From: Octopus vulgaris
Lineage: Eukaryota
Direction: 5' to 3'
Length of the DNA stretch: 64,000 bases
NCBI GenBank assembly: GCA_951406725.2
Contig: OX597826.1
Coordinates: forward strand, 27,032,001-27,096,000
Positions 26,896 to 60,075 of this stretch are shown here, piece after piece (position 1 is the first letter of the stretch; each line of letters begins with the position of its first letter). A program made the position numbers and the translations under genes. Below the pieces are notes generated by a model. That model was not told where the DNA came from and did not search any database. It saw only the letters and a list, made by a program, of their open reading frames with translations.

Positions 26896-27212
26896 TACGC
26901 GCGCATACACACATATCTTTTTTCTTTTTCTTGTTTCGATCCTTCGGTTACGGCCAAACTGCAGCATCGGCCCTGAAGGATTTTAGTCGAACCAAACGAC
27001 TATTTTCTTTTAGGCCTCAAACTCATATATTTTAATAATTAGATGACAACTGCTGCCGTTTAGAAGTCTTCGGCGCAAAGTGTGTCTAAGCGTTCTATTT
27101 CTTCATTGCCTTACTAGGGGAATGCTGTGACCTCGGTCCTTTTATGCTCGTGCAAACAGGGTAACAGTCCCCCTCGGAGTCCTAGGACTCGAGACAGTAA
27201 TGACCAGCGGTT

Positions 27213-27550
27213 GATAATGATGATGATGATGAGGAGGAGGAGGAGGAGGAGGAAGAAGAAGAGTGGGAGTACAATGACGATGATGATGAAGAAGAGGAGG
27301 AAGCAGGGGAGGAGGAGACGGAGGAGGAGGAGGAGGAGGAAGCAGGGGAGGACAATGATGATGATGACGACGACAACGATGATGATGGTGACAATGACGA
27401 CGATGACAACGATGACAGCGACGATGACGACGACGACGATGACGACAACGGCGATGAAAACAACGACGACGACAATAATGATCACGATCATGATCGTAAT
27501 AATGACCACGAAAACAACGATGAGGATGATGATGACTACGACGATGATGA
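27213..27550. repeat. Degenerate trinucleotide repeat (GAT/GAG/GAC)n
   Basis: Direct reading; explains the poly-R/M/T and poly-S ORFs. Confidence 0.9.
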
Positions 27551-28438
27551 GCCCCTAAATGTGTGGCCTTATGAAAATGCTAAAATTTATATCTCGGTAT
27601 ATTGATAAATAGATAATTAGATAGATGGCAACTATGGAAGATCTATTAGAATTATTTATCTACTTAGGGTTATATTTATATTTATTATATTTATATCTTT
27701 CTTGTTCTCGTTTGAAGAGACCACCCTTTATAGTTATATTTCACTGCCATGCTAGAGACGATTCGACCGGAAGAGGAAGTAACATTCATTTATAAACAAC
27801 CTAGCTTTCTCTTCTTCTTCTTCTGTGCTGACAGTGTGCTGTTTAGGCATTAAGACAGCTAGACCAGATTAGCGTCAGTGGGTACTGGATATTTAGTACA
27901 CCTAGAAAGAAATAATAGGCATGTGTGTTGGCTATTAGTGCATGTGTGGGGGTGCTGTGCGTGCCCATGTATATGTAAGCGTGTTTGATTCAGTAACCAT
28001 ATGTACATGTATGTGAGCTGTTAATATACTGTGTTTATCTAAGTAATCGCTTTGCCATGCACACATTCATTTCGTTCCGTTTGCAGACTGAAAACTTACA
28101 CAGAAGGGACGAAAATATGGAAACCAAATACACACACACATTCATACACATACAAACACGCATGCACGCACACACACATACACAGACACAAACACGCATG
28201 CACAACCAGTGTTGATTACAAAACAAGGAACAGAAGTGTGTTTCTTAATTATATATTAGCGGCGAATGAGGAAATGAAACTGAGAGACACGTATTAAGGA
28301 CAACTGAGCAACATAAACATATATATATATGTACATATATACACACATACATATGGATAGAGAGAGATAGACAGACAGACAGACGGACGGACGGACAGAT
28401 AGATAGATAGGTAGATAGAATAATAGACACATGGATGG

Positions 28439-29351: not shown

Positions 29352-29789
29352 ATCCAAACAGATCAATTGCTAGTGCGTAACAGACCGGACCTAGTGGTCG
29401 TCAACAAGGTGCCCCACATATTCTACATAGTGTACGTTGCAAGCCCCATTGAACCACGAATAGTCATGTAGGAAGCCGAAAAGATAGAAACAGCCCTCAT
29501 AAACGCGATATGGCCCGGCTATGGAAAGTGAAGAAGATGAAGATAGTAGCAATTATTCTTGGGTCCTTAGGAACAGTATCAGAAAGGATCAAGGGGAATA
29601 TAAAGGAAAAAATGGAAAGGCGTGCCCAGTAGAACTGTTAAAAAAGTTTTGTCTCTTTGGCACGGCGAGACTATTCAGGAAAGCATTAGATAGCTGAAAA
29701 GAACGAATAGCATGGTACCGTAGGCTGCAGGTAGTAAGAACGCTATGCATGCAAGATTCAAGGAGCTCCAACAAAACCTGTGATAAAGA

Positions 29790-29790
<1 letters not shown>
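29352..29790 (+). mobile_element. R4/Dong-type non-LTR retrotransposon 3' end (restriction-like endonuclease domain remnant)
   Basis: IQTDQLLVRNRPDLVVVNK...YVASP...EAEKI...ARLWKVKKMKIVAIILGSLGTV...LKKFCLFGTARLFRKALDS* (stop at 29695-29697). Flanked by AAT/AAC repeats on the left and (TAA)n on the right. Confidence 0.85.
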
Positions 29791-29975
<185 letters not shown>

Positions 29976-30032
29976 TGAGATGGACTTGCATAGCAGGTGA
30001 CTTGAGCTCGTGTGCTGAAACAAACAATTGCA

Positions 30033-30320
30033 GCTTGGAATATGTTTCTAAGCCATTCAAGAGCACAAAAATAAAACCCCTTAGATTCACTTCAACATTT
30101 CAATTTAATTCGTGTCAAAATATTTTCGTCGCTTTGAAACCGCAACTTGTTCACTGACAAAACTTCTTGTTGCATCGAAGTTTTGTCAGTGAACAGGTCG
30201 CGGTTCCAAAGCGACGAAAATATTTTGACACAAATTAAATTGAAATGTTGAAGTGAATCTGACAGTTTTTTTGTCTTTTGTGTGTGTTCTTAAATGGCTT
30301 ATAAACATTTCCCAAACTTC
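30033..30320. repeat. Palindromic element (arms about 135 bp, 10-nt loop at 30167-30176) with a hammerhead fold on both strands
   Basis: AGATTCACTTCAACATTTCAATTTAATT...CTGACAAAACTTC / GAAGTTTTGTCAG...AATTAAATTGAAATGTTGAAGTGAATCT. Confidence 0.9.
30184..30230 (+). ncRNA. Hammerhead ribozyme-like motif, G3:C8 covariant core
   Basis: tgtca GTGAACA g gtcgc-ggttccaaa-gcgac GAAA atat TT tgaca; mirror copy on the minus strand at about 30113-30159. Confidence 0.72.
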
Positions 30321-30824
30321 AATAATAATAATATTAATGCGTTAACAGTCACATTTACACACAGAGACAAAGATAAACTTGTATCAAGAACAATCTTAGT
30401 ATGAGGTTCTGAAGTATGTGGTTACAATCCTTATTACTTTCAAACATATCGCTACCCCGATGTCATCTAAAAGGGTAGAGTTTATAAGCTCAGGCATTAA
30501 TGTTAGCGGTGGATGAAAATTTTAAGTTTCTAACCGAGGAAATTTAGAATACACTCTCGCTCTGAGGTTGATGCGTCAGCTGTACTCTGGTGCCTATGGT
30601 TCAGTAAACGTACACATACATACACACGTACATACACACATACATACACACATACATGCAAACACATACGCTTACTCACATAGTTATGTTGATAAATCTT
30701 TATGTTGCATACATTTGTGGAAATCCTCTCTCTCTCTCTCACTTCCTCTCTTTCTCGCATTCCCCCTTCCTTTCTCTCTCTCGCCCTATCTCTTTCTATA
30801 TCTATATTTTTTCTCTCTGTCTCG

Positions 30825-59987: not shown

Positions 59988-60075
59988 CGTTTGCTGCACC
60001 TAGGTTTCGCAATAGGTCACCCATCTAAGTACTAACTAGGCTCGACGGTGCTTTCAACGTGATAGGACCGTAAGT
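59988..60075 (-). pseudogene. 5S rRNA pseudogene with internal deletion
   Basis: Reverse complement ACTTACGGTCCTATCACGTTGAAAGCACCG|TCGAGCCTAGTTAGTACTTAGATGGGTGACCTATTGCGAAACCTAGGTGC matches the 5' and 3' parts of metazoan 5S rRNA, with the middle missing. Confidence 0.78.

What the first reader, a model, noticed from the sequence alone, without database searches (positions are those of the whole stretch)
30184..30230. Natural G3:C8 swapped hammerhead on both arms of a palindrome
tgtca GUGAACA g gtcgc-ggttccaaa-gcgac GAAA atat UU tgaca has a 5-bp helix I and a 5-bp helix II. The core has the 3:8 pair inverted, and there is one extra purine after A9 (G in the right arm, A in the left). To my knowledge a G3:C8 core is rare in nature and is mainly known as a rescuing double mutant. 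The UUU cleavage triplet is suboptimal. The element lies in (TAA)n beside the Dong-like fragment.
Basis: partly seen in the sequence, partly recalled or inferred. Interest (0 to 1): 0.8.

Follow-up and report, generated by a model that had tools for sequence, protein, structure and literature searches.

The report
Swapped-core hammerhead in Penelope retroelement end
The short end-piece of an abundant jumping gene (a Penelope-like retroelement, in what is likely an octopus genome) carries a hammerhead-shaped RNA motif whose two paired core letters are swapped in thousands of copies while its closest sister family keeps the usual order; it likely still cuts RNA slowly as a pair of molecules, but cutting is untested.

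Summary
Observation confirmed. 30184-30230 (+) and its mirror 30113-30159 (-) form a minimal type I hammerhead with a G3:C8 core. It is the terminal repeat (pLTR) of a Penelope-like retroelement family (N1), inserted here as a stub: one full repeat with tail plus an inverted partial repeat. The core 17-mer occurs 6,746 times in the genome; G3 and C8 are fixed, and no C3:G8 version was found in this context. Long copies place the motif about 1 kb behind an RT/GIY-YIG ORF. The sister family N2 has C3:G8 at the same place, with compensatory changes in all three helices; two other families carry U3:A8 and A3:U8. So the swap is a natural covariation. The extra G, U17 and palindromic helix III are shared with relatives and known from Penelope hammerheads. 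The Dong-like fragment and (TAA)n are only the landing site, and the A in the left arm is private decay. Cutting is not shown: most copies read through the site, 5' ends are not clearly enriched there, and N2 tolerates C at position 9. I found no natural G3:C8 in the papers searched; one key paper was not held. This scan noted the same family six times before on other DNA.

The parts
30184..30230 (+). Minimal type I hammerhead motif with G3:C8 core, extra G after A9, palindromic helix III and U17 (inverted arm)
30113..30159 (-). Mirror hammerhead motif in the full, tail-bearing arm; two private changes (extra purine G to A, one helix II pair to G-U)
29975..30176 (-). Full pLTR unit of Penelope-like family N1 (about 200 nt): inferred transcription start, hammerhead, start of the ORF, tail
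30177..30321 (+). Inverted partial pLTR, ending at about unit position 150, where 39 of 54 inverted arms end (143-153)
29975..30025 (-). One-sided tail of about 50 nt, part of the ORF start
29975..30056 (-). First codons of the retroelement ORF (ATG at 30056), broken in this copy by a stop at codon 3
   Evidence: sequence; the same stretch in L190 aligns to the N-terminus of the N2 protein
29962..29973 (+). Left copy of a possible 12-bp target-site duplication; 11 of 12 identical to the right copy but inside TAA repeats, so weak here
   Evidence: family pattern
30322..30333 (+). Right copy of the possible 12-bp target-site duplication
29791..29974 (+). (TAA)n array, the landing site; not part of the element
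29376..29790 (+). Broken 3' end of a non-LTR retrotransposon with a restriction-like endonuclease motif (the Dong/R4 label is recalled, not tested); neighbour only
   Evidence: three-frame translation

Best explanation
This is a stub insertion of the terminal repeat (pLTR) of a Penelope-like retroelement, and its hammerhead motif has a G3:C8 pair, fixed in the family, where the sister family has C3:G8; the motif likely still cuts RNA slowly, when two copies pair through the palindromic helix III or with help from the element's protein. Shown: the repeat lies about 1 kb behind an RT/GIY-YIG ORF in long copies, holds the first codons of that ORF, and inserts with an inverted arm, a one-sided tail and target duplications near 12 bp. 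Inferred: transcription starts about 24 nt upstream of G3, behind a TATA-like box. Reverse transcription primed at two sites inside the ORF start (about +150 and +209) copies only the 5' end of the RNA, which gives 200-nt solo repeats and head-to-head palindromes like this one. Inferred: the swap arose on the N1 branch and was kept because the 3:8 pair matters more than the letters. This particular copy is probably inert: it is decayed, and a read-through transcript would fold into one long hairpin. My odds: Penelope pLTR with a hammerhead-derived motif 0.95; measurable self-cleavage by the family motif 0.55-0.6.
For: Family: 6,746 exact core 17-mers against 1 for the reversed control. G3 in 171 of 178 and C8 in 174 of 184 sampled arms. 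Only 19 sites with both letters changed, none C3:G8. Link to the retroelement: 6 of 6 long N1 loci have the motif behind the ORF, Pfam GIY-YIG at E 1.8e-5, and the unit's peptide aligns to residues 3-24 of the 1,309-aa N2 protein (E 0.002). Anatomy: 54 of 90 tail-anchored copies have an inverted arm, 39 of these ending at 143-153; exact duplications of 10-14 bp in 21 of 90. This matches PMC3846280 and PMC8557442. Covariation: N2 is sister to N1 (SH-aLRT 100, quick tree) and has C3 in 98 and G8 in 100 of the first 100 listed of 3,724 matches, with compensatory pairs in helices I, II and III. With positions 3 and 8 left free, all 5 motifs found downstream of related ORFs in 34 metagenome loci have a Watson-Crick 3:8 pair, 4 C:G and 1 U:A. 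Other families in this genome carry U3:A8 (6 of 30 loci) and A3:U8 (76 of 78 matches). Within N1 the only common non-CpG variant in a helix keeps the pair as U-G. The engineered C3G/G8C double mutant partly restores cutting in a Penelope hammerhead (PMC11167929).
Against: No cleavage data exist for this motif. 60 of 90 copies extend upstream through the predicted cut site, so their templates were uncut or rejoined. Copies starting at the cut site numbered 27, the same as at a control site 14 nt downstream; 12 of the 27 are explained by a 7-nt microhomology. The young sister family N2 has C instead of the conserved A9 in 94 of 100 listed copies, so the core can drift in this clade. Structure-breaking subfamily variants: 0 of 38 structured against 8 of 85 other positions, p = 0.057 only, with classes set by eye. 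Cutting was not needed for insertion in vitro in the one Penelope element tested, and minimal Penelope hammerheads cut poorly even as dimers. The tree is a quick one with an unresolved base and a midpoint root.
Confidence: 0.58

Rival explanations
1. Same Penelope repeat, but the motif is a hammerhead descendant that no longer cuts. The fold is kept for another job, such as RNA dimerisation, binding of the RT protein or holding the 5' leader in shape, or it rides along under weak selection.
For: Most templates were uncut (60 of 90); no clear pile of 5' ends at the cut site; N2 spread to thousands of copies with C9; hammerhead mutants do not affect insertion in vitro (PMC11167929); whole Penelope clades lack hammerheads (PMC8557442).
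Against: All other catalytic-core letters of N1 are unchanged (U4, G5, A6, A9, G12, A13, A14, A15.1, U16.1). The 3:8 pair, which forms in the active fold (PMC3884650), is Watson-Crick in all 5 motifs found with these positions left free and in N1, N2 and the A3:U8 family.
Confidence: 0.36
2. The G3 and C8 letters are two independent changes fixed by chance, or by a promoter or splice-site constraint in the N1 master element; their complementarity is a coincidence.
For: The motif lies 20-65 nt behind the inferred transcription start, and the letters before and at G3 read like a 3' splice site. The swap needs two transversions, and single changes are strongly harmful in other hammerheads (PMC8495972).
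Against: Bases upstream of the unit vary beyond 2-3 nt in 37 copies, so no constant first exon is seen. No spliced joint at that place among the joints listed for four RNA-type contig sets (weak). Four different Watson-Crick pairs are fixed in four families.
Confidence: 0.05
3. The palindrome is a MITE-type DNA transposon, or a ribozyme belonging to the neighbouring Dong-like element that targets (TAA)n.
For: Long inverted repeat; adjacency to the Dong-like fragment and the TAA array.
Against: Arms are unequal, junctions vary, 36 of 90 copies have no inverted arm, flanks are mostly not TAA, and long copies continue into a Penelope ORF.
Confidence: 0.01

Closest known systems
Minimal type I hammerheads in the pLTRs of metazoan Penelope-like elements (Cervera and de la Pena 2014, PMC4209133), including the U3-A8 family of Schistosoma mansoni
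   Same: Type I layout, 5-bp helix I, one unpaired nucleotide between 9 and 10.1, G10.1-C11.1, short palindromic helix III, place in the pLTR, mostly solo copies or opposite-strand pairs.
   Different: Core pair is G3:C8. That paper names only U3-A8 as a natural covariant in the parts I read (main text parts 1-2 of 4; supplement part 1 of 3).
Engineered C3G/G8C double mutant (Anolis Poseidon hammerhead, Frangieh et al. 2024, PMC11167929; review PMC8495972)
   Same: Same swapped pair. The ORF start and the RT initiation sites lie just downstream of the hammerhead, as here.
   Different: Here the swap is the natural, fixed state of a high-copy family, and its activity is unmeasured.
Insertions of endonuclease-bearing Penelope elements with inverted pLTR and one-sided tail (Adineta Pen2a, PMC3846280; Fig. 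2 of PMC8557442)
   Same: pLTR of about 200 nt holding the first codons, TATA about 20 nt before an initiator-like site, head-to-head inverted arm, tail at one end, short target duplication, (TA)n targets.
   Different: Tail of about 55 nt rather than 30-40; duplications mostly 12-13 bp; thousands of solo stubs.
Non-LTR retrozymes of animals (bioRxiv 10.64898/2026.07.22.740005, part 1 of 5 read)
   Same: Short non-coding units with a type I hammerhead, related to Penelope pLTRs.
   Different: Retrozymes are tandem arrays. These copies are dispersed monomers or inverted pairs and match the ends of an autonomous element.

Membership tests
Hammerhead ribozyme (minimal type I) | Three-helix junction with the core strands at the right places | tested here: met
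   compensatory changes against N2 and five relatives
Hammerhead ribozyme (minimal type I) | Literal consensus C3 and G8 | tested here: not met
   G3 171 of 178, C8 174 of 184; Rfam gives no hammerhead hit
Hammerhead ribozyme (minimal type I) | Watson-Crick pair between 3 and 8; the other core letters (U4, G5, A6, A9, G12, A13, A14, A15.1, U16.1, H17) | tested here: met
Hammerhead ribozyme (minimal type I) | Palindromic short helix III allowing a dimer | tested here: met
   self-complementary segment; palindromic in N2 (imperfect) and all five relatives
Hammerhead ribozyme (minimal type I) | Self-cleavage 3' of position 17 | not testable with these tools
   the indirect test on 5' ends of genomic copies was inconclusive
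Penelope-like element pLTR | Repeat lies 3' of an ORF with RT and C-terminal GIY-YIG endonuclease | tested here: met
   6 of 6 long loci; GIY-YIG by Pfam; RT motifs seen in the ORF and by relatives, though Pfam RVT_1 did not hit N1
Penelope-like element pLTR | Repeat holds the first codons of the ORF | tested here: met
   through the sister family's protein
Penelope-like element pLTR | Inverted 5' arm, one-sided tail, short target duplication | tested here: met
   54 of 90; 39 of 54; 21 of 90 exact duplications of 10-14 bp (52 had none by exact match)
Penelope-like element pLTR | Full-length N1 element with a direct pLTR at both ends | tested here: inconclusive
   all six long N1 loci were 5'-truncated; the sister N2 shows the full layout
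Nematis clade of Penelope-like elements | Placement with named Nematis references | not tested
   label recalled from protein motifs; a CX3CXXC linker is present; no named reference was in the tree
Non-LTR retrozyme | Tandem head-to-tail units, each with a hammerhead | tested here: not met
   copies are monomers or inverted pairs; the one tandem fetched was a 3.5-kb duplication of host DNA (L215)
Dong/R4 retrotransposon part | Constant association with the Dong 3' end and (TAA)n | tested here: not met
   flanks of other copies are (TA)n or unique AT-rich DNA

The most novel reading that the evidence does not exclude
N1 is an active natural G3:C8 hammerhead, and Penelope families of this one genome use all four Watson-Crick pairs at 3:8 (C:G, G:C, U:A, A:U). 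That would be a natural version of the classic rescue experiment. U17, already present in the clade, would have allowed the swap by avoiding the G3-C17 trap hinted at in PMC3884650. Searches that demand CUGANGA would be missing thousands of slow, dimer- or protein-dependent ribozymes in animal genomes.
Probability: 0.5. Interest if true: 0.62.

Novelty: new variant of a known kind. Interest (0 to 1): 0.45.

Why it matters
The 3:8 pair of the hammerhead core was established by structure and by a laboratory swap. In the papers I could read, only U3:A8 is named as a natural alternative. A fixed G3:C8 family with a C3:G8 sister, plus U:A and A:U families in the same genome, gives a ready set of natural sequences for asking whether Penelope hammerheads are selected to cut, and how slowly. 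It also shows that standard descriptors and Rfam miss whole high-copy families. The retroelement layout itself is ordinary, and the result would refine known biology, not overturn it.

Tried and rejected
A generic RT family search of the genome returned other retrotransposons and was of no use. Candidate tandems L100 and L215 were not full elements; L101 holds an unrelated Penelope element next to a unit by chance. I first read the fixed 5' end as a splice junction and dropped this: a TATA-like box lies at -30 to -24 and the upstream bases vary, which fits a transcription start better. The test for 5' ends at the cut site gave 27 against 27 at a control site; scaled by pattern frequency in 90 sampled loci (22 and 35) this is about 1.6-fold, confounded by microhomology. 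No RNA holder was listed for the window copy. Four runs guessed to be RNA hold family pieces as contigs, which cannot show ends or strand. The first metagenome scan and the viral scan found no relatives. In 29 of 34 metagenome loci no downstream motif was found; only 16 loci have 300 nt or more behind the match; two weak non-Watson-Crick hits lay antisense (L276) or about 4 kb upstream (L296). The tool for contigs of the closest ENA proteins (P0002-P0027) was closed, so their hammerheads are unseen. The careful tree did not finish; the quick one is used. Papers not held: Lunse et al. 2017 (PMC5785218), Przybilski and Hammann 2007 (PMC1986816), Hammann et al. 2012 (PMC3334697), Martick and Scott 2006 (PMC4447102). 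One supplementary file of PMC4209133 could not be searched.

Full report
Observation. Helices I and II form in the predicted fold of both arms. A descriptor for minimal type I hammerheads with any Watson-Crick pair at 3:8 finds only these two sites in the window and none at the same helix lengths in 60 shuffles. Rfam reports no hammerhead. The segment from A15.1 to U16.1 is self-complementary.

A high-copy family. The core 17-mer has 6,746 exact matches in the genome against 1 for the reversed control. In 58 arms from 29 loci (one duplicate locus left out) G3 was in 52, C8 in 55 and the extra nucleotide was G in 53. In a larger, non-random sample of 238 arm matches the counts were G3 171 of 178, C8 174 of 184, extra G 172 of 184 and U17 192 of 197. 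Sites with both 3 and 8 changed number 19, none of them C3:G8; the commonest (7) is the double transition expected from decay. DNA contigs of four other coded organisms hold the family, and their loose-end lines show the same core; no variant at 3 or 8 is among the rows shown, with 21 rows hidden. The top protein hit of the sister family is 99% identical and labelled Octopus vulgaris by its source, so the genome is likely an octopus.

What the element is. Of 90 copies picked by an exact tail 23-mer (90 of the first 100 listed, of 2,730), 54 have an inverted arm, 39 of these ending at unit positions 143-153 of 209. 27 start at positions 1-5, and 21 have exact target duplications of 10-14 bp; 52 had none by exact match and 6 were uninformative (TA)n runs. 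The two arms of a locus often share private variants, which suggests that the palindrome is made at insertion. A 22-mer just upstream of the unit has 526 matches, and following it led through a 3' UTR of about 1 kb to the end of an ORF with RT motifs and a GIY-YIG domain. All 6 long loci fetched carry the G3:C8 motif behind that ORF; Pfam finds GIY-YIG at E 1.8e-5 and does not hit RVT_1. All six are 5'-truncated. The 3' part of the unit encodes a peptide that aligns to residues 3-24 of the intact sister protein. A TATA-like box lies at -30 to -24 from a pyrimidine-A start, and upstream bases vary among 37 copies. This matches the described anatomy of Penelope insertions: a pLTR of about 200 nt with the first codons, TATA and initiator, inverted arm, one-sided tail and short duplication (PMC3846280, passages; PMC8557442, passages). 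Internal priming at two sites (PMC11167929, passages) would explain the solo stubs; this step is inferred. In the window, 29975-30176 (-) is the full unit with tail and 30177-30321 (+) the inverted arm. The broken retrotransposon end at 29376-29790 (the Dong label is recalled) and the TAA array are only the landing site.

Is the swap a true covariation? A sister family N2, 54-56% identical in RT and with intact 1,312-codon frames, has a hammerhead-shaped motif at the same place before its ATG. Among the first 100 listed of 3,724 matches, C3 is in 98 and G8 in 100. Against N1 it has compensatory pairs in helix I (U-A to C-G), helix II (G-C to A-U) and helix III (A-U to G-C). N1 and N2 are sisters in a quick tree (SH-aLRT 100; base unresolved, midpoint root). 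Of 34 metagenome loci with related ORFs, 5 have a motif downstream of the ORF. With positions 3 and 8 left free, four are C:G and one U:A, all with the extra G and a palindromic helix III, three with U17. By parsimony G3:C8 arose on the N1 branch, and the extra G and U17 are older. More distant families of this genome have U3:A8 (6 of 30 loci found with a descriptor that required a pair) and A3:U8 with a very short helix II (76 of 78 matches).

Does it cut? Not shown. For: all other core letters are kept; the one common non-CpG helix variant keeps a U-G pair; the engineered double mutant partly rescues a Penelope hammerhead; and an unpublished remark in PMC3884650 (passage, data not shown there) implies that G3 works worse with C17, which N1 lacks. 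Against: 60 of 90 copies were made from templates uncut at this site; starts at the cut site equal those at a control site, 27 and 27, and 12 of the 27 have a 7-nt microhomology; N2 carries C at the conserved position 9 in 94 of 100 copies; the excess of variants outside the structure is only p = 0.057. Slow or protein-assisted cutting is typical of these motifs (PMC4209133), so uncut templates fit both readings. A transcript across this palindrome would fold into one hairpin of -164.9 kcal/mol, so this copy is probably inert.

Comparison with what is known. Hammerheads in Penelope pLTRs, their extra nucleotide, dimer-type helix III, solo copies and opposite-strand pairs are described (PMC4209133: main text parts 1-2 of 4, supplement file 2 part 1 of 3 and a word search; review PMC6765202, passages). 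Natural covariation at 3:8 is named only as U3:A8 there and in PMC3088659 (passages). G3:C8 appears as a laboratory mutant. Seven searches listed no report of a natural G3:C8 family. This is a limited claim: Lunse et al. 2017, which by my recall lists very many Penelope hammerhead variants, and three other key papers were not held, and unseen supplements may bear on it. The octopus repeat annotation (PMC13282606, part 1 of 3) lists recently active Penelope and Dong-R4 families and, in that part, no ribozymes. This scan had noted the same family six times on other pieces of this genome, and G3-C8 candidates in two other genomes; those notes are unchecked and are not independent support.

Verdict. 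Real, well supported as a natural compensatory swap in a Penelope pLTR hammerhead; a new variant of a known kind; activity open. Interest 0.45.

Noticed in passing
L255-L263; motif about 110 nt before the ATG (L257 near 2140-2185 and again behind the ORF): Young Penelope family N2 with intact 1,312-codon frames has a hammerhead with C in place of the conserved A9 (94 of 100 listed copies; 3 have A9). Metagenome relative L267 has U3:A8 with C9. A recurrent natural A9C variant.
   Followed up: partly
L081, about 1,990-2,030; L353-L358: Penelope family with an A3:U8 core and a helix II of only about 2 bp; 76 of 78 pattern matches are A3:U8.
   Followed up: partly
L068, L070, L071, L074, L079, L085, L091 (3' repeats): Abundant Penelope family with 781-codon frames and an upstream second frame; its motifs have U3:A8 cores. 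L076 and L082 show a related motif with C in place of A13.
   Followed up: partly
L203:1614, 1634, 1635: A-to-G changes at about 3-24% depth in four RNA-type contig sets, against 0.5-4% among genomic copies, plus runs of G in loose ends. This may be A-to-I editing of hairpins from inverted pairs; it needs matched DNA.
   Followed up: no
L101:5279-7999 (-): Near-complete Penelope element of another clade (Hydra-type by recall) with an Asn-rich insert and direct repeats; my descriptor found no hammerhead in it.
   Followed up: partly
L217, about 1,470-2,760: Mariner-type transposon inserted in the 3' UTR of an N1 element.
   Followed up: no
window 59988-60075 (-): Truncated 5S rRNA-like sequence (Rfam 40.8 bits), probably a 5S-derived repeat.
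   Followed up: no
window 27204-27605 (+): Low-complexity acidic run (GAG/GAT/GAC repeats), open for 133 codons; probably a simple repeat.
   Followed up: no
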